Virus record (IMG/VR): IMGVR_UViG_2914150438_000002
Coordinates: 11,170-75,169 of that record
DNA: 64,000 nt
Direction: 5' to 3' (one strand)
Origin: a virus
Lineage: Duplodnaviria; Caudoviricetes
Both the position numbers and the translations under genes were made by a program. Shown here one piece after another: positions 10,767-40,033 of the stretch. The notes beneath the pieces are model-generated. The model had not been told where the DNA came from, did no database searches, and worked only from the letters and a program-made list of their open reading frames with translations. The number at the start of each line of letters is the position of its first letter. The first letter of the stretch is position 1.

Positions 10767-11287
10767 GCAACTACGAGGACGAATACCAGAAGTGGGTCTC
10801 GAGCTTATCTCCCAAAGAAAGAGCCAAGCTCGTGGCTCAGGGCCTCGACAAGCCGCTTATGGACGACTACAAGCTCGGCACACCTGACTCCGAAGTGGCG
10901 TTTGCGACTATCGGCGAGGAATTCGACTACGACCAGTTCGACAAGGAAGAGCCAATTTCGGAAACTCAGGTTGACGACAAGGCGAAAGCGTATGGTTCGC
11001 TGTTGCTATGTTGGGTGTTTCAACGGCTTCAAAGCAATCATTCCGAAAAGAATTCCACTCTTGAGCGGGATACCTTGCTGTTTGCTCTTGGGCTTGAGAA
11101 CCTTCTCGTTCTGAAAACGCAGACTGCAATCGCCAAGCGGTACGGCATCACTCGCGCGGGCGTATCCTCCAGAGTGAAAGCTTGGCAAAAGCTTCTCAAG
11201 ATAAAGCCGTCAGCCCTTATGAAATCCGAAACGGCGTGCAAGTCTTACCGAAAGGCTCGCCTCGCCAATTTGACAAAGCAACGATAG
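10763..11287 (+). CDS. Hypothetical phage protein with C-terminal HTH
   Basis: TQTAIAKRYGITRAGVSSRVKAW is an HTH pattern; GGAGG ribosome-binding site. Confidence 0.65.
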   Translation: MSNYEDEYQKWVSSLSPKERAKLVAQGLDKPLMDDYKLGTPDSEVAFATIGEEFDYDQFDKEEPISETQVDDKAKAYGSLLLCWVFQRLQSNHSEKNSTLERDTLLFALGLENLLVLKTQTAIAKRYGITRAGVSSRVKAWQKLLKIKPSALMKSETACKSYRKARLANLTKQR

Positions 11288-11289
11288 GT

Positions 11290-11928
11290 ATGGAACAGGA
11301 AACTTCTATCGAAAAATCAGAAATGCCTACCGAGCTTTCCTTGGCGATTGCTCGCATTAACGAACTGCACGCTCAAGCTGAGGAATTAGCCCAAAAAGCA
11401 AAGGAAGTAGCAAGCAAGACAATCGAGATTGCTATCGAATGCGGTAAGCTTCTCATTGAGCAAAAGGCAAAAGTCGGGCACGGGAATTGGGAAAAATGGT
11501 GTAGAGACAATTTAATTTTCGATATACGAACAGCTCAACGCTATATGGGGCTTTTTCGTAAAACTCGTGAAATAGAAAATAGCACCAACTCTGAAACTCT
11601 AAATGATAGTAGCGTTAGTCCAAAAACGACACAAAATCAAAATGTGTCGTTTTTGGAAATAGCCAAACCCAAGAATATTCGCCAAGCTTATATCGCGACA
11701 GGTATTCTGCCCGAAACGCCAAAGCCTGACCCAGAGGATAAAATCGAGCCTCTTGTTGTCCACGTCAGGCACATCGATTTCATTGTGAAGTGGTATCGCG
11801 ACACGGTTGAGAATAAGCCCGCCAAAGACTGGAAGTTCATAGAGCGCGAGGCCCTCATAAACGACCTGACGCCTCTAATGGAAATCTACAACGAGCTGAT
11901 AGAACTCCAAGAGAATTGCAAGCAGTAG
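11290..11928 (+). CDS. DUF3102-domain protein
   Basis: IECGKLLIEQKAKVGHGNWEKWCRDNL...RTAQRYM matches the DUF3102 pattern. Confidence 0.75.
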   Translation: MEQETSIEKSEMPTELSLAIARINELHAQAEELAQKAKEVASKTIEIAIECGKLLIEQKAKVGHGNWEKWCRDNLIFDIRTAQRYMGLFRKTREIENSTNSETLNDSSVSPKTTQNQNVSFLEIAKPKNIRQAYIATGILPETPKPDPEDKIEPLVVHVRHIDFIVKWYRDTVENKPAKDWKFIEREALINDLTPLMEIYNELIELQENCKQ

Positions 11929-11933
11929 GTTTA

Positions 11934-12087
11934 TGCAGGGTGGTCTAACGGTAAGACGCAAGGTTGACTCGCCTTTGCATACGCAAAGCGTCTCGCCCTT
12001 CGGGTCTTTTGCCTTTGGCAAAATCTCATTCGCGCTTTGCTTGAATTCATAACCTTGAGATTGGCGGTTCGAGTCCGCTCCCTGCAC
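11934..12087 (+). tRNA. tRNA-Met(CAT)-like gene (Met/fMet/Ile2 unresolved) interrupted by an 82-nt insertion in the anticodon loop
   Basis: Removing the insert gives a 72-nt cloverleaf: acceptor TGCAGGG/CCCTGCA, D stem GTCT/AGAC, anticodon arm CAAGG-TTCATAA-CCTTG, T arm GGCGG-TTCGAGT-CCGCT. No encoded CCA. Confidence 0.85.
11964..12047. repeat. Multi-hairpin mini-element, copy 1 (inside the tRNA)
   Basis: TT-GACTCGC...TCTCGCCCTTCGGGTC...TCTCATTCGC...TTGAA-TT, shared with copies at 13904 and 28472. Confidence 0.9.
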
Positions 12088-12093
12088 GCATAA

Positions 12094-12417
12094 CTACTTT
12101 TTGACAGCTTTATAAACGTACACAAAATTGCTTTCTACTTTTTCTGCAAAAGATTCTTGTAATGAGGTAGCAATTTTCGCTGGTTTTAAATCATCTGCAT
12201 GTATTGAGAACCCATGTTCTTCTAGTTTCTTTTCTATATTCCTTGCAACTTCTTCATCTGAACACCTCCAATACTTAAAGTGTTTACATGTTATCCCCTT
12301 TTCTCTTTCATGTTCGCTTTTCCTTCTATCGGGATCGTTTGATATTCCAGCATACCAATGATGATTCGTCTGGAAATTAGGATCAATTTGACGTACATAG
12401 TCTATTATTTTTTGCAT
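12094..12417 (-). CDS. AT-rich accessory gene, GIY-YIG-like nuclease fold
   Basis: WYAGISNDPDRRKSEH resembles the GIY-YIG Y-x-G...R motif; opposite orientation and AT-rich relative to the flanking genes. Confidence 0.5.
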   Translation of the reverse strand: MQKIIDYVRQIDPNFQTNHHWYAGISNDPDRRKSEHEREKGITCKHFKYWRCSDEEVARNIEKKLEEHGFSIHADDLKPAKIATSLQESFAEKVESNFVYVYKAVKK

Positions 12418-12576
12418 AATTAACAAACCTTCTAGCTTTTTTAAGATTTTAACCATAGATTCAAGTTTAAAAATTTAACATCTGAATGCAAGTATTTTTT
12501 AAGGAATCTATTAACCAACGACATACGGCAGGGACGTTCGGCAGACCCGTTTCTTCTTGCGAATGGCATTTTTGAA

Positions 12577-12679
12577 AAGTTCCACATAAAAGTATAAATG
12601 AGACCCGCAAACCCTCTATTTTGCTAAGATTGGGGGGCTTTTTTATAAGTGGAACTTTGGTGGAACTTATGTGGAACTT
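12577..12679. promoter_or_regulatory. GTGGAACTT repeats upstream of terS; candidate cos/pac terminase-binding region
   Basis: GTGGAACTT at 12649, 12660 and 12671 (11-bp period) plus an inverted copy at 12577-12585. Confidence 0.6.
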
Positions 12680-12700
12680 TTGACAACTTCCGCTTTTTAT

Positions 12701-13315
12701 ATGGAAGAAAACATCGGACAAAAGATATTAAGCAAAGACCTTGAAAATATAGTAAAAAAGGTCGCTTCGGGAAAGACTCTTACGAGTACGGAACGCGCCA
12801 TAGTGGAAAAGGCTTATGGCCAAAAAGAAGAATCTGTGAAGTATGCCGAAACTACAACCGAGCTTGCGGATATTCTCGGTGTAGCAAGACAGACCATAAA
12901 TAAATGGCGAAAAATAAAAGGTTCTCCCAAACCTTATTCTAACGGCAAGCACAGTGTGTCAAAGTGGCGGGATTTTGTAAGAAAACACGATTTAAAAGAG
13001 TCGGACTCTCCCGAAGACGAGGAGTTAAAGACCCGCAAGCTATTGGCGGAGGTAAAGCAAGCGGAAATCAAACTCAAGGTAATGGAAGGAACGTATGTTG
13101 CCATTGAGAAGGTTCGCGAAGTATGGACTGCCCATATAGGACAAGTACGGCAAATCTTGGAAAGCAGATTTTTAAACGAGCTTCCGCCAATTCTTACAAC
13201 CCTCGATGCCGTACAAATTCGGGAGAAATTGCAGGAGGTACTCGACGAGACTTACAAGGCAATCTCTATCGCCGCAGACTCGATAAAAGAGCCTGTGGAG
13301 GTCGAGGATTCTTAG
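12701..13315 (+). CDS. terS: Terminase small subunit (lambda Nu1-like)
   Basis: wHTH TTTELADILGVARQTINKWRK, then coiled coil RKLLAEVKQAEIKLKVMEGTYV, as in Nu1-type proteins. Confidence 0.75.
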   Translation: MEENIGQKILSKDLENIVKKVASGKTLTSTERAIVEKAYGQKEESVKYAETTTELADILGVARQTINKWRKIKGSPKPYSNGKHSVSKWRDFVRKHDLKESDSPEDEELKTRKLLAEVKQAEIKLKVMEGTYVAIEKVREVWTAHIGQVRQILESRFLNELPPILTTLDAVQIREKLQEVLDETYKAISIAADSIKEPVEVEDS

Positions 13316-13599
13316 TAGTCCTCTGGAAAAAGCAGAGTGGTTGCGCTTCTGTCCCACTCGGTTATTATCCAAATCCTTCTGCCATCTGGGAGTTTGTATT
13401 CGGAGAGCAGCCTTTCGCCGTTTTTGAGAGCCTCATCATTGCTCTTCCAGTCTTCCTTGCATACATCGCCCCAATCTCCATTTGCGTAGCGGATAAGATA
13501 AGGAAGCATTGAAAATCCCTTCTTTTCGCAGTAGTTTGCAAGCGTCGTGGTTGCAACTACCCGCCCGAAGTCGAATTTGCTTTCTATTATTGTTTCCAT
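13312..13599 (-). CDS. Conserved small phage/plasmid hypothetical protein
   Basis: GDWGDV...NDEALKNGERLLSEY...IWIITEWDRSATTLLFPEDY is a recurrent mobile-element family signature. Confidence 0.8.
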   Translation of the reverse strand: METIIESKFDFGRVVATTTLANYCEKKGFSMLPYLIRYANGDWGDVCKEDWKSNDEALKNGERLLSEYKLPDGRRIWIITEWDRSATTLLFPEDY

Positions 13600-13600
13600 A

Positions 13601-14356
13601 TTATGCCTTTATTGCTTGGTTAATTTGAAGTGTTGCGCCTTTCTCTCTCCCCGCACGGTAAGATGTTGCGTCCATTCTCGTACCCTGCCTTCTCCGTGAT
13701 TCTCCTATCACTCTGAAAGTGTTTTTGATATAAACCTCCAGCTCATGTTCATTGTTTGATAAGGCCAGTTCATAGTTTTGGCGGGATTCTTCCCCCTCTC
13801 CAGAAAGCGTATCTTTTTCGGCTTGCTCCATTCGCTCGTATATTCCGCACCTAAGCCCGAAGTAGTAATCTGCCTTGTTTGGCCTAAAGCAGGTATTTTT
13901 AAATTGACTCGCGTGCTTCGCACCGTCTCGCCCTTCGGGTCTTTCGGCTTGCGCCGAAATCTCATTCGCACTTCGTTTGAATTCATTCCAACATTTGAAG
14001 AATACGTTTCTTAGATAGCCGTGGACGTATTTTGCGATTTCAATATTTTCGGAAGTCCCAATAACCACCATTCCAGAATTTCCGTTATATAAGATTTTCA
14101 CCTTGTAAAACCTGCAAAGTATTGCGGTTATTTCCGTGTCGGCAGGATTGAGAACCGCCCTTGAGAAGAAGTATTCGTGTTTTATCTTTGATGCGGGAGT
14201 ATCGTTTTCGATATTCGCCATAGTGATATTGTATTTTGTCATAAGCCGTTGAGCCATTTCCATTGCTCTTTCGGCTTCCGCCTTACTTGCTCCCTTATCC
14301 TTGGAGAGAGTTAGAAGCTTTTGTATTCGTTTTAGGATTGATTTTTCAGTGTCCAT
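13601..14356 (-). CDS. DUF2786-domain protein carrying a 26-aa in-frame mini-element insertion
   Basis: ILKRIQKLLTLS...EAERAMEMAQRLMTKYNI is the DUF2786 pattern; residues KRSANEISAQAERPEGRDGAKHASQF derive from the repeat copy at 13904-13983. Confidence 0.8.
   Translation of the reverse strand: MDTEKSILKRIQKLLTLSKDKGASKAEAERAMEMAQRLMTKYNITMANIENDTPASKIKHEYFFSRAVLNPADTEITAILCRFYKVKILYNGNSGMVVIGTSENIEIAKYVHGYLRNVFFKCWNEFKRSANEISAQAERPEGRDGAKHASQFKNTCFRPNKADYYFGLRCGIYERMEQAEKDTLSGEGEESRQNYELALSNNEHELEVYIKNTFRVIGESRRRQGTRMDATSYRAGREKGATLQINQAIKA
13904..13983. repeat. Multi-hairpin mini-element, copy 3 (in frame inside a CDS)
   Basis: Same GACTCGC / TCTCGCCCTTCGGGTC / TCTCATTCGC / TTGAATT frame with different but still pairing stems; net +78 nt. 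Confidence 0.88.
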
Positions 14357-14366
14357 ATTCTGCTAT

Positions 14367-14648
14367 TTATAATTCCCAAGTGGCTATTATTACGTTTCCG
14401 CATTCATCTATGCGGGGAGAAGTTTTAAAAAATTCTTCGGTTATGTTGTTTAAAGTCATCTGGAGGTTTTGGTCTCGCTCGGTATTGGAGTCGAAGTACG
14501 AAATATCCAAATTTAGATTTGTATTTAATGTCCAAGCCTTGCCATAGAGCACGTCGTTGTGAACATTCTCCAATCCGTAATGTTCCAAAACTTGTATCGC
14601 CATAGCGTGTTCAGCTTTCCAGAATTGTATTTTTAGTTTCTTATTCAT
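14367..14648 (-). CDS. Hypothetical protein
   Basis: 93-aa ORF with AAGGA ribosome-binding site; first gene of a leftward three-gene block. Confidence 0.6.
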   Translation of the reverse strand: MNKKLKIQFWKAEHAMAIQVLEHYGLENVHNDVLYGKAWTLNTNLNLDISYFDSNTERDQNLQMTLNNITEEFFKTSPRIDECGNVIIATWEL

Positions 14649-28071: not shown

Positions 28072-28470
28072 ATGAGAAAGGAAATTGAGGATATACTATT
28101 TGAATACCTGCTAAGCGCATTGCCAGAAGCAATGAAGCCGATGCTTGTAAAGGGACACAGCACGGAAGACAGGCATATACCGTACATTTCACTCGATGTT
28201 GGAGATGTAAGACCGTTTTCAGATATGTTGGAATCCGACGGGATATTTGAGTCTGAAGTAAATGTGGCAATAGCGGATTCAGCCCACGATATAAACTATG
28301 ATGCCCAATTTTTGCGCATAGCACAGATACGCAGTATTCTTGGGAATTTTACATTGGATAACGAGAAGTATCGTTGTGAAGGATTGTGGTTTGAGGCGGA
28401 AAACGACGCCAGAGACGATAATAATTTGGGTACAGTCCTAACGTATAAGCTCGTATTTCAAACCTTATGA
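28072..28470 (+). CDS. Tail terminator-like protein
   Basis: Acidic 132-aa ORF immediately before the tail tube gene. Confidence 0.5.
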   Translation: MRKEIEDILFEYLLSALPEAMKPMLVKGHSTEDRHIPYISLDVGDVRPFSDMLESDGIFESEVNVAIADSAHDINYDAQFLRIAQIRSILGNFTLDNEKYRCEGLWFEAENDARDDNNLGTVLTYKLVFQTL

Positions 28471-28471
28471 A

Positions 28472-28554
28472 TTGACTCGCCTTTGCATACGCAAAGCGTC
28501 TCGCCCTTCGGGTCTTTTGCCTTCGCAAAATCTCATTCGCGCTTCGCTTGAATT
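28472..28554. repeat. Multi-hairpin mini-element, copy 2 (intergenic)
   Basis: Near-identical to 11964-12047; lies between the stop at 28470 and the TTGACA motif of the tail tube gene. Confidence 0.9.
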
Positions 28555-38467: not shown

Positions 38468-38551
38468 GTTTTTAAGCGTAAAAGGCAGATTTGCATTAAG
38501 TTGGGTCAACACCAAAGGTTGTGGAATAGGTTGATTTTTTAGATTTGCCTT

Positions 38552-39733
38552 TCATAGATTCACCCCGCATTCCACGAGGACTCTCAGTCTGTAATTTTCA
38601 AAGTTTCTGTATCCATAGGCTCTGCGTTGTATCAACTTCATCTTGCGGTGGAAGCCTTCCGTAATTCCGTTATTTTTTGTAAATCTCCACATTCTTATTA
38701 TCGGCGCAAACCATTCGCTTATCGTTTCCGCAAGCTTCCCAAACTCTGTCGGCGCTTCGTATTTCATTATCTTCATCATTTCCTTTAACTTTCTTATGTT
38801 ATCCCTGCATTGCTTTGCCGTCTGACTCTTTTTATTCAATAGCCCGCATAATCGCTCCTTAAATTCGTACGCAAGCTCTATTGCCGGATTTCCCCTAAAA
38901 AAGCTTTTAAGCCGCTCCATCTCTTGCGCTTTTAGCCTCTCTCTCCTTTTCCGCAAAGGATAAGTAATCGATCTCTTCCACTTTACTTCTTCCTGCGCAC
39001 TCTTGCAAAATTCCATAAAGTGGTGGAGCACTAATCGTATCACATGAAACCTATCCGCTACTATCTTCGCCCTCGGAAAACATCTCCTTACGATACTTCG
39101 ATATCCGCTCGATAAATCCATGCACACTACCTTCACATTTTCCCTGCCTTTGTACGACATTAGCGCGCCTGCTATATCGATATGTCTCTTCCCTTTAATA
39201 ACATCGTATACCCTGTGGTGCGATAAGTCGGCTATCGTAGTCGCAAACTTGTAACCCTTGTGGATTGTGTGCTCGTCTATTCCTATAATTTCAGGACAAG
39301 GATAGTTGATTTGCTCTTTGAGCTTTTGCTCGTACCTACTGTGGATTGCCCGCTCAACCGTGCTTGCAGATATGCGGTAAATCCGAGCAATAGCCTTATT
39401 GCAAACGTTCCGAGCGTATTCACTTACGAGCCTGTTTTTGAACCTCTCCGAGTGACGAGCGTAAGGCCTTACTCCCTCAAGCCTTTCGCGAAAGACCCTT
39501 CCGCAATCGAGACACTTGTAACGCTTGCATTTTACCTTGAGATGATAAATAGCTCCGTTTTCAGATACGTGCTTAATATAACGCCGGTAGGAATCGTAAT
39601 GAATCAAACGATGCGACCCGCATAAGCAGTCGGGTATACCCGACTGCTTATGCTCAACTTCCGCAAGCGAAAAGTCTTGACCAACTCTTACTGTCCTGAG
39701 TATCTTGTAACCCTTGATTAACACATTGGGCAT
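38552..39733 (-). mobile_element. ISL3-family transposase
   Basis: Zn finger CLCG...CLDC, IGIDEH, VVCMDLSSGY, IVADRFHV, TEGFHRKMKLIQRRAYGYRNFENYR. Element ends not confidently delimited. Confidence 0.93.
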
Positions 39734-40033
39734 TGTAGAACATTTTTTATTCTCTTTGCCCTCTTTTTTTTCTCCCATTCCACAATCTTTGACGTAGAGC
39801 GTTTTTATTGTCTAACACCATTGCAGCGAAAAATGCCCATTTTTTTGAATTTTAAACTCAAGCTTTTCTCTAAAAAAGGCCGATTTTGGGAAAATGTGTT
39901 AGACAATTTCCAGCAATTTTTGCCCTTAAAAAACCTTCATTTTTAGCCTCAAAACAGGCCTGAAAAGTGCCTTAAAAAACGCCGCTTTTTACCCGCCGTT
40001 TCGATCATTTTTTAAATGGGTGTTATACACTCT

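What the first reader, a model, noticed from the sequence alone, without database searches (positions are those of the whole stretch)
11934..12087. Phage tRNA(CAT) interrupted exactly at position 33/34 of the anticodon loop
An otherwise clean 72-nt cloverleaf has 82 extra nt between U33 and the CAT anticodon. This is the position used by group I introns in cyanobacterial tRNA-fMet, but the insert is far too short for a group I intron and is a copy of the mini-element. The tRNA is either inactivated or restored by precise removal at DNA or RNA level, which would be a new intron-like behaviour. Standard tRNA scanners may miss it.
Basis: partly seen in the sequence, partly recalled or inferred. 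Interest (0 to 1): 0.75.

Follow-up and report, generated by a model that had tools for sequence, protein, structure and literature searches.

The report
Phage tRNA gene split by mini-repeat
A prophage tRNA gene is interrupted in its anticodon loop by an 82-base copy of a small hairpin-rich mobile repeat, and because closely related phages carry the intact gene in their DNA, this is an ordinary insertion that probably disabled the tRNA, not a new kind of intron.

Summary
Rfam's tRNA model matches 11934-12087 (46.7 bits) with about 82 extra bases in the anticodon loop, and ARAGORN misses it. The insert is one copy of a 78-86 nt four-hairpin repeat. That repeat occurs in 23 of 46 genomes of this bacterial family (1-54 matches each) and in 0 of 134 searched genomes of the order's other families.

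The intron-like reading is not supported.
- Uninterrupted alleles of the same tRNA exist as DNA: two IMG/VR phage contigs and 10 of 10 metagenome contigs that encode the identical upstream protein.
- All uninterrupted alleles read CAAGG-CT-CAT. All interrupted alleles read T at position 32.
- Three RNA libraries contain a "joined" form, but it carries that C. In the one long contig, from X15, the flanks are those of a related phage. These are ordinary empty alleles, not spliced RNA.
- The genome has no RtcB, no tRNA-splicing endonuclease and no group I intron match.

Best reading (about 0.8): a recent insertion of a non-autonomous repeat, most likely inactivating the tRNA. This resembles Rickettsia palindromic elements, which occur in protein genes and in a tmRNA gene. 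What moves the repeat is unknown.

The parts
11934..11965 (+). 5' exon of the prophage tRNA(CAT): acceptor 5' strand, D arm, anticodon stem 5' strand CAAGG, then T32 T33. Position 11964 is T here and C in every uninterrupted allele.
   Evidence: Rfam alignment; allele table; sequence
11966..12047 (+). 82-nt insert, mini-element copy A (GACTCGC ... GCTTGAATT). It can equally be placed at 11964-12045 or 11965-12046 because of the flanking TT. It has four hairpins.
   Evidence: Identical in all four full filled alleles compared: window, sister prophage, G004 and IMG/VR L041. L040 is cut by its contig end after about 30 nt of insert.
12048..12087 (+). 3' exon: anticodon CAT, AA, anticodon stem 3' strand CCTTG, variable loop, T arm, acceptor 3' strand and discriminator C. 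No CCA is encoded.
   Evidence: Identical to the 3' part of empty alleles L200, L206 and L208.
28474..28554 (+). Mini-element copy B (81 nt, 96% identical to copy A). It lies between two + strand phage genes, directly after the stop codon context TTATGAATT.
13906..13983 (+). Mini-element copy C (78 nt, diverged, stems changed with compensation). It lies antisense inside the minus-strand DUF2786/DUF7168 gene 13601-14356, is read through in frame, and adds about 24-26 residues.
38595..38598 (+). Empty target site (TAATTTTCAAAG) inside the ISL3-family IS. The same site is occupied by a mini-element copy in ISL3 copies of other genomes (G008 L011, G031 L015, and the contigs of runs X1 and X15).

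Best explanation
A temperate phage of this chicken-gut bacterium carries a tRNA(CAU) gene. In the lineage integrated here, an 82-nt copy of a small non-autonomous repeat landed in the anticodon loop at a TT. It lies in the same orientation as the tRNA. The repeat is specific to this bacterial family. It has four hairpins, no terminal inverted repeats, and TT on both flanks. The event is young: apart from C32->T, the window's exons are identical to uninterrupted alleles in related phages. The tRNA can no longer present its anticodon, and no known route exists in this genome to remove the insert, so the gene is most likely dead and free to decay. The insert then spread among related prophages, probably by the recombination that shuffles this tRNA gene. 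Shown: the insertion, the empty DNA alleles, the repeat family with its conserved fold, and the absence of known splicing enzymes. Inferred: loss of tRNA function and the way the repeat moves.
For: (1) Full-length tRNA match with a single long insertion. (2) Uninterrupted alleles exist in DNA assemblies. IMG/VR contigs L200 and L201 carry them. So do 10 of 10 ENA/Logan metagenome contigs that encode the exact upstream DUF3102 protein. ARAGORN calls the uninterrupted alleles it was run on, L200 and L201, tRNA-Met. (3) The window's exons match empty alleles L206 and L208 at 71 of 72 positions; the only difference is C32T. (4) The joint seen in three RNA libraries (11963->12047 with a C between) is that same empty allele. 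The 1021-nt X15 contig leaves the window sequence before 11678 and after 12091, and its downstream letters match L201. (5) No allele of this tRNA with the TT joined form was found in viral, metagenome or genome contigs. (6) The insert belongs to a mobile family. Five BLAST copies occur in this genome. The covariance model matches 23 of 46 family genomes with 1-54 matches each, and 0 of 134 searched genomes of the order's other families. Filled and empty pairs exist at other sites: the ISL3 site and a G022 hairpin. (7) Copy C is antisense to its host gene and is kept open in frame, so that copy is carried in the mRNA and translated, not removed. (8) No RtcB, no tRNA-splicing endonuclease and no group I intron match were found. 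(9) Two of the three filled lineages carry private stem-breaking changes: C3.A70 in the sister prophage and two T-stem mismatches in G004.
Against: The window's own copy still has a perfect cloverleaf, so decay is not shown for it. Some uninterrupted alleles also carry stem mismatches, so the excess of damage in filled alleles is weak evidence. The insert is identical in all filled alleles while their exons differ at 5-6 of 72 positions. Most of those differences also segregate among empty alleles, which points to a young insert moved by recombination, but selection on the insert is not excluded. C32->T is unexplained by a simple insertion. No transposase was identified: Y1/HUH is absent from all 46 family genomes. 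No RNA data for a filled allele were obtained.
Confidence: 0.8

Rival explanations
1. The insert behaves as an intron. The precursor is cut at both borders and the halves are re-ligated, by an unknown ribozyme activity of the four-hairpin element or by unknown enzymes, which restores a working tRNA.
For: The insert is in the sense orientation. Its fold is under selection on this strand, with conserved G.U pairs. The window's exons are intact. The position matches that of group I introns in some bacterial tRNAs (established knowledge).
Against: The only joined forms seen carry C32. Where long flanks are available (the X15 contig), they are those of a related phage, and such alleles exist as DNA. 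No U32/T32 joined form was found in any collection. The same element sits antisense in a protein gene, where it is translated, and antisense in the ISL3 transposase gene, so it is not tied to the sense strand of its hosts. There is no Rfam ribozyme or intron match, and no RtcB or splicing endonuclease. The predicted fold of the 154-nt precursor disrupts the D arm and anticodon stem.
Confidence: 0.04
2. The insert is a reversible DNA switch. It excises precisely in some cells, for example on induction, and regenerates the tRNA gene.
For: Filled and empty alleles occur on the same flank types. Head-to-tail tandem arrays with a single TT between units fit a circular or excisable intermediate. In DNA run X1, a contig with the window's upstream flank stops at the junction; this is ambiguous.
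Against: Precise excision should leave a TT (T32) empty site. Every empty allele found has C32 (14 of 14), and pattern scans for the TT form found none of this tRNA. All four combinations of flanking exon variants also occur among empty alleles, so recombination explains the shared backgrounds.
Confidence: 0.05
3. The insert is kept because the element itself does something as RNA, such as acting as a stable structured RNA or decoy. It exploits the tRNA promoter and processing signals, with the tRNA sacrificed as a carrier.
For: The four-hairpin fold shows strong covariation: 95% of cells paired against 78% in shuffles, and 14 of 25 pairs with double changes. The insert is identical in all filled alleles. 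A chromosomal array of 9 units lies between a co-oriented gene and a terminator-like site. In RNA run X15 a contig holding another copy has word depth 252 against 11 for the phage flank, while in DNA run X1 the two are about equal. This last point is weak because there is one depth figure per contig.
Against: Copies occur in both orientations relative to host genes. Most related phages lack the insert. No RNA ends or strand data are available. The identity of the insert is explained by its youth.
Confidence: 0.08

Closest known systems
Rickettsia palindromic elements (RPEs)
   Same: Both are small, hairpin-forming, non-autonomous repeats restricted to one bacterial lineage. Both are found in intergenic DNA, in frame inside protein-coding genes, and inside a stable-RNA gene. 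R. bellii has 526 RPEs, of which 53 lie in protein genes and 1 in the tmRNA gene (PMC1458961). Here, copy C lies in frame in a DUF2786 gene and copy A lies in a tRNA gene.
   Different: There is no sequence relation. This element is shorter (78-86 nt against roughly 100-150 nt, from my own knowledge), has four separate hairpins rather than one long palindrome, also forms head-to-tail tandem arrays, and rides on phages and an IS.
REP/BIME elements with RAYT transposases, and IS200/IS605-derived palindrome-associated elements
   Same: Both are strand-specific hairpins whose structure, not sequence, is conserved. Both lack terminal inverted repeats, are mostly intergenic, and form mosaic clusters with other hairpin modules.
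   Different: The defining Y1 (HUH) transposase is absent from this genome and from all 46 family genomes searched.
Group I introns in bacterial tRNA anticodon loops (e.g. cyanobacterial tRNA-fMet and tRNA-Leu)
   Same: Same place in the tRNA and the same orientation.
   Different: Group I introns are at least about 200 nt with a P1-P9 core (established knowledge). This insert is 82 nt and matches no Rfam intron model. Other copies sit in non-tRNA sites and antisense to genes.
Archaeal and eukaryal tRNA introns (bulge-helix-bulge, protein-spliced)
   Same: Both are short inserts in a tRNA, and non-canonical positions are known in archaea.
   Different: The host is a bacterium (tmRNA present). 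No splicing endonuclease or RtcB ligase was found.
Mycobacteriophage mobile elements MPME1/2 ('ultra-small mobile elements' of phages)
   Same: Both are small non-autonomous elements whose presence or absence distinguishes otherwise near-identical phage genomes (PMC3029335, listed; not read in detail).
   Different: From my own knowledge, MPMEs are about 440 bp, have inverted repeats and carry a small ORF. This element is 80 nt, has no ORF of its own and no inverted repeats.
IS607-type (serine-recombinase) elements
   Same: Both lack terminal inverted repeats, have the same dinucleotide on both flanks, and are compatible with tandem head-to-tail copies through a circular junction (inference from published models, my own knowledge).
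   Different: No such transposase was linked to the element here. An 80-bp double-stranded circle is physically unlikely. Hairpin covariation is not expected for a double-strand recombination site.

Membership tests
tRNA (Rfam RF00005) | Full cloverleaf scoring above the curated threshold | tested here: met
   46.7 bits against a gathering score of 29, model positions 1-71 of 71. The joined exons have no stem mismatch.
tRNA (functional gene) | Continuous 7-nt anticodon loop in the mature RNA | not testable with these tools
   The DNA encodes 82 extra nt in the loop. No RNA data exist for a filled allele.
Group I intron | Conserved catalytic core, length at least about 200 nt | tested here: not met
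   The insert is 82 nt. No Rfam intron match at the gathering threshold or at E<=1.
Protein-spliced tRNA intron (archaeal type) | Splicing endonuclease (PF01974) and RtcB-type ligase (PF01139) in the genome | tested here: not met
   Neither was found in the 96%-complete genome, and the control genomes gave matches.
REP/RAYT or IS200/IS605-derived element | Y1 HUH transposase (PF01797) in genomes that carry the repeats | tested here: not met
   0 of 46 family genomes, including those with 23-54 copies.
Classical MITE (DDE-transposase derived) | Terminal inverted repeats | tested here: not met
   The ends GACTCGC… and …GCTTGAATT are not inverted copies of each other.
Classical MITE (DDE-transposase derived) | Target-site duplication | tested here: inconclusive
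   TT stands on both flanks in most copies. At the ISL3 site and the G022 hairpin, the empty site has one TT and the filled site has two. At the tRNA the empty site reads CT, not TT.
RPE-like selfish palindromic repeats (a kind, not a homologous family) | Lineage-restricted small hairpin repeat that inserts in frame in ORFs and in stable-RNA genes | tested here: met
   Restricted to family f1. In-frame copy C. tRNA copy A.
Structured RNA or ssDNA element | Base pairs kept by compensatory changes | tested here: met
   14 of 25 pairs have double changes. 95.4% of cells are paired, against 77.9% in shuffles and 34-52% in slid controls. The alignment was fitted to the model, so it leans towards the structure; the independent MAFFT alignment gives 10 of 25.

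The most novel reading that the evidence does not exclude
The 80-nt four-hairpin repeat may be a new type of mobile element that moves through a single-stranded (ssDNA or RNA) intermediate. The enzyme would be unrelated to the Y1/HUH transposases that serve REPs and IS200/IS605. It would insert at TT, build head-to-tail arrays, and be able to enter stable-RNA genes. The tRNA insertion, with its unexplained C32->T, would then be a footprint of that mechanism. A still bolder version, in which the element is removed from the tRNA precursor, is not excluded but has no support.
Probability: 0.1. Interest if true: 0.7.

Novelty: new member of a known kind. Interest (0 to 1): 0.3.

Why it matters
For the finding as posed, a possible new intron-like behaviour in a bacterial or phage tRNA, the answer is negative, and the case is settled mostly with public DNA alleles. 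Three things remain useful. First, it is a clean, dated example of a small repeat knocking out a phage tRNA gene, invisible to a standard tRNA scanner. Second, it describes a repeat family absent from Rfam, with a well-supported four-hairpin fold, family-wide distribution, tandem arrays, and insertions in a tRNA gene, a protein gene and an IS, but with no known mobilising enzyme. Third, it gives a caution for RNA-seq reading: a 'spliced' junction in metatranscriptomes can simply be the empty allele of a related phage.

Tried and rejected
1. Viral contigs gave 0 hits. Metagenome contigs gave 34 and genome contigs 5, but all were other tRNAs or chance matches, and none shares this tRNA's D arm. 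These scans missed the true empty allele because it has C32.
2. The pattern for the C32 empty allele found nothing in the 46 species genomes of the family. Phage contigs and metagenomes did hold it.
3. blastn of 11182-14400 against the GenBank phage collection gave no match.
4. The first look-up of the upstream protein from its TTG start found nothing. The ATG start at 11290 worked.
5. Read laying: none of the three RNA runs held a contig of a filled tRNA allele, so splicing of a filled allele could not be examined. The runs are contigs, so they give no ends, no strand and no rare variants. The DNA contig of X1 that stops 4 letters past 11963 is ambiguous.
6. The idea that the element targets hairpin loops, as the anticodon loop would suggest: 6 of 23 reconstructed empty sites fall in a predicted hairpin loop, against 24% of control positions. 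There is no enrichment, so the idea was dropped.
7. The idea that the insert is more conserved than the exons because of selection. Most exon differences among filled alleles also segregate among empty alleles, so a young insert plus recombination suffices.
8. Excess decay of filled alleles is only suggestive, because empty alleles carry mismatches too.
9. Rfam at permissive E-values, run on the tRNA region, the tandem array and a composite repeat of G022, found nothing relevant.
10. The organism's name could not be obtained with the tools offered. Runs holding the sequence are chicken and bird gut metagenomes.

Full report
**1. What is at the coordinates.**
Rfam's tRNA model matches window 11934-12087 on the + strand over its whole length. 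The score is 46.7 bits against a gathering score of 29, with E = 8e-7 for the window. One long insertion sits in the anticodon loop. ARAGORN reports no tRNA anywhere in the window. Read directly, the gene has these parts:
- acceptor stem TGCAGGG/CCCTGCA
- a short D arm
- anticodon stem CAAGG/CCTTG
- anticodon CAT
- T arm GGCGG/CCGCT
- discriminator C

With the insert removed, every stem pairs. The insert is 82 nt. TT stands before it and it ends in TT, so it can be placed at 31/32, 32/33 or 33/34.

**2. The setting.**
The window is part of a 2.70-Mb, 56% GC bacterial genome with a tmRNA and 48 tRNA genes. Public runs that hold the stretch are chicken or bird gut metagenomes. The tRNA lies in a prophage, after replication genes (helicase, primase-type, DUF3102). 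A second, mosaic-related prophage sits about 0.5 Mb away and carries the same interrupted tRNA. So do the species genome G004 and two IMG/VR phage contigs.

**3. The insert is one copy of a repeat family.**
BLAST finds five copies in this genome: three in the window and two in the sister prophage. Copy B (28474-28554) is 96% identical to the tRNA copy. Copy C (13906-13983) is diverged.

- Structure: an alignment of 16 copies from 13 genomes gives four hairpins joined by invariant linkers, and 10 of 25 pairs show compensatory changes.
- Covariation: on 49 further matches (36 distinct), 95.4% of cells pair, against 77.9% in shuffles and 34-52% when partners are slid. 14 of 25 pairs have changes on both sides.
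- Strand: two nearly invariant G.U pairs mark the + strand as the one that folds.
- Distribution: a covariance model finds the element in 23 of 46 species genomes of the bacterial family, in all four genera, with 1-54 matches per genome. It finds none in 134 searched genomes of the order's other families.
- Rfam has no matching family.
- In this genome the model also finds a head-to-tail array of nine 79-nt units plus the start of a tenth, at contig C1:87748-88458.
- In high-copy genomes the unit is often one module of larger intergenic mosaics of hairpins.

**4. The repeat is mobile, but not intron-like in general.**
- An ISL3-family IS has the site TAATTTTCAAAG empty in all 24 copies of this genome that match the site pattern. 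The same site is filled in copies from G008, G031 and two sequencing runs.
- A hairpin in G022 (…GCGCATTGCTGC…) is empty in one place and filled in two others. In both cases one TT becomes TT…TT.
- Copy C lies antisense inside the DUF2786/DUF7168 gene and is read through in frame. A 48%-identical relative lacks exactly those roughly 24-26 residues. The ISL3 copy is also antisense to the transposase gene. An element that is translated when antisense is not being removed from RNA there.
- No terminal inverted repeats are present. The Y1 transposase that serves REPs and IS200/IS605 is absent from all 46 family genomes. What moves the element remains unknown.

**5. The decisive test: are there uninterrupted alleles, and at which level?**
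More distant prophages (G031, G018) have a continuous orthologue with a different, compensated anticodon stem and the loop CTCATAA.

I then laid contigs of three RNA libraries from three studies, and of one DNA run, on the locus. Each RNA library holds a contig that joins 11963 to 12047 with a single C between. That gives an uninterrupted tRNA reading CAAGG-CT-CATAA-CCTTG.

This looked like splicing, but it is not, for three reasons:
- The C is not in the filled gene, which has T at 11964.
- The 1021-nt X15 contig departs from the window before 11678 and after 12091.
- That contig's downstream letters match the phage contig L201.

A pattern scan with C32 then found two IMG/VR DNA contigs with the empty allele. 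A look-up of the exact upstream protein (window 11290-11928) returned ten metagenome contigs, and all ten carry the empty allele. So the uninterrupted gene is the common DNA form, and the window's state is derived.

It was never found for this tRNA.

**6. Age and fate.**
The window's exons differ from empty alleles L206 and L208 only by C32T, so the insertion is young.
- All four full filled alleles compared (window, sister prophage, G004, IMG/VR L041) share an identical insert and T32. The fifth, L040, is cut by its contig end after about 30 nt of insert. All 14 empty alleles have C32.
- The filled alleles sit on two upstream-flank types and two T-arm haplotypes. All four combinations of those variants also occur among empty alleles. 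Recombination within this small gene is therefore frequent and can carry the insert between backgrounds.
- Private changes in filled alleles break stems: C3.A70 in the sister prophage and two T-stem pairs in G004. Several empty alleles also have mismatches, so this is only weak evidence of decay.
- The genome has no RtcB and no tRNA-splicing endonuclease.
- The predicted fold of the 154-nt precursor disrupts the D arm and anticodon stem.

**7. What remains unexplained.**
- The C32->T that accompanies every filled allele. It could be a rare T32 variant that offered the TT target, a later change, or a by-product of insertion.
- The enzyme that moves the element.
- Why a non-coding repeat keeps four hairpins on one strand.
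- The tandem array lies between a co-oriented gene and a terminator-like site. One RNA library shows a contig with another copy at much higher word depth than the phage flank. These are hints, no more, that the element may matter as RNA.
- A test of whether it targets hairpin loops was negative.

**8. Comparison and verdict.**
The closest known kind is the Rickettsia palindromic elements, which are lineage-restricted small hairpin repeats. In R. bellii, 53 of 526 lie in protein genes and one lies in the tmRNA gene (PMC1458961). REP/BIME-type repeats are alike in structure-over-sequence conservation but fail the transposase test. Group I and archaeal-type tRNA introns fail on size, model match and enzymes.

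The finding is real, but its exciting reading is not supported. It is a recent insertion of a new member of a known kind of selfish repeat, and it most likely inactivated a prophage tRNA gene. The earlier notes of this scan on the same window (the three-copy mini-element, and the in-frame copy in DUF2786) agree with what I found. The scan has not recorded this element on other DNA.

Noticed in passing
window 38500-39801 (ISL3-family IS; transposase ORF 38552-39778, minus strand) and 27 other copies in the genome: There are 28 copies longer than 1 kb of one ISL3-family IS. 18 of them lie within 200 bp of a tRNA or tmRNA gene, mostly just downstream of its 3' end. Four more are the second member of an IS pair at such a site. 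This points to strong tRNA-proximal targeting.
   Followed up: partly
genome contig C1:87748-88458 (outside the window; locus L252 3749-4459, minus strand): A head-to-tail array of nine 79-nt units of the same four-hairpin element, plus the first 8 nt of a tenth. It lies in a 1.4-kb gap between convergent genes, with a terminator-like hairpin after it on its own strand. G027 has a similar array at a contig end.
   Followed up: partly
window 28462-28473 and the sister prophage at C1:1496615-1497318: At the point where the window has mini-element copy B, directly after the stop-codon context CCTTATGAATT, the sister prophage has a roughly 700-bp AT-rich cassette bounded by an 11-bp direct repeat CCTTATGAATT. 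Two different inserts therefore use one intergenic point.
   Followed up: no
window 13601-14356 (minus strand), element at 13906-13983: Mini-element copy C is translated antisense as about 24-26 extra residues in a DUF2786/DUF7168 protein. A 48%-identical phage relative (L257) lacks them. Every close relative found has the insert.
   Followed up: partly
window 11934-12087 versus genome contig C2:760340-760416: The phage tRNA's acceptor stem and discriminator (TGCAGGG…CCCTGCA-C) are nearly those of the host's initiator-like tRNA(CAT) (CGCAGGG…CCCTGCA-C). The difference is that U1-A72 is paired where the host has a C1.A72 mismatch. The phage tRNA may derive from the initiator and may decode as an elongator; its identity (Met or Ile2) was not determined.
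   Followed up: no
run X15 (RNA) and run X1 (DNA), contigs laid at 11964-12049: A 201-nt contig carrying the ISL3-embedded copy of the mini-element has word depth 252 in a metatranscriptome, against 11 for the phage flank. In a DNA run the two are about equal (3.3 against 3). This hints at an abundant RNA, but there is one depth figure per contig, so it is weak.
   Followed up: no
window 12094-12456 (minus strand): An AT-rich 120-aa ORF with no Pfam match lies directly after the tRNA. It is absent from related phage contig L201, where the tRNA is followed at once by the homologue of window 12495 onward. It is probably a moron at a mosaic joint.
   Followed up: no
loci L212-L231 (G022) and L232-L251 (G013, G026): In high-copy genomes the 80-nt unit is embedded in longer repeated intergenic mosaics of several hairpin modules. 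Some modules begin with a similar TTGAC motif, and roughly 125-150-nt variants carry extra hairpins.
   Followed up: partly
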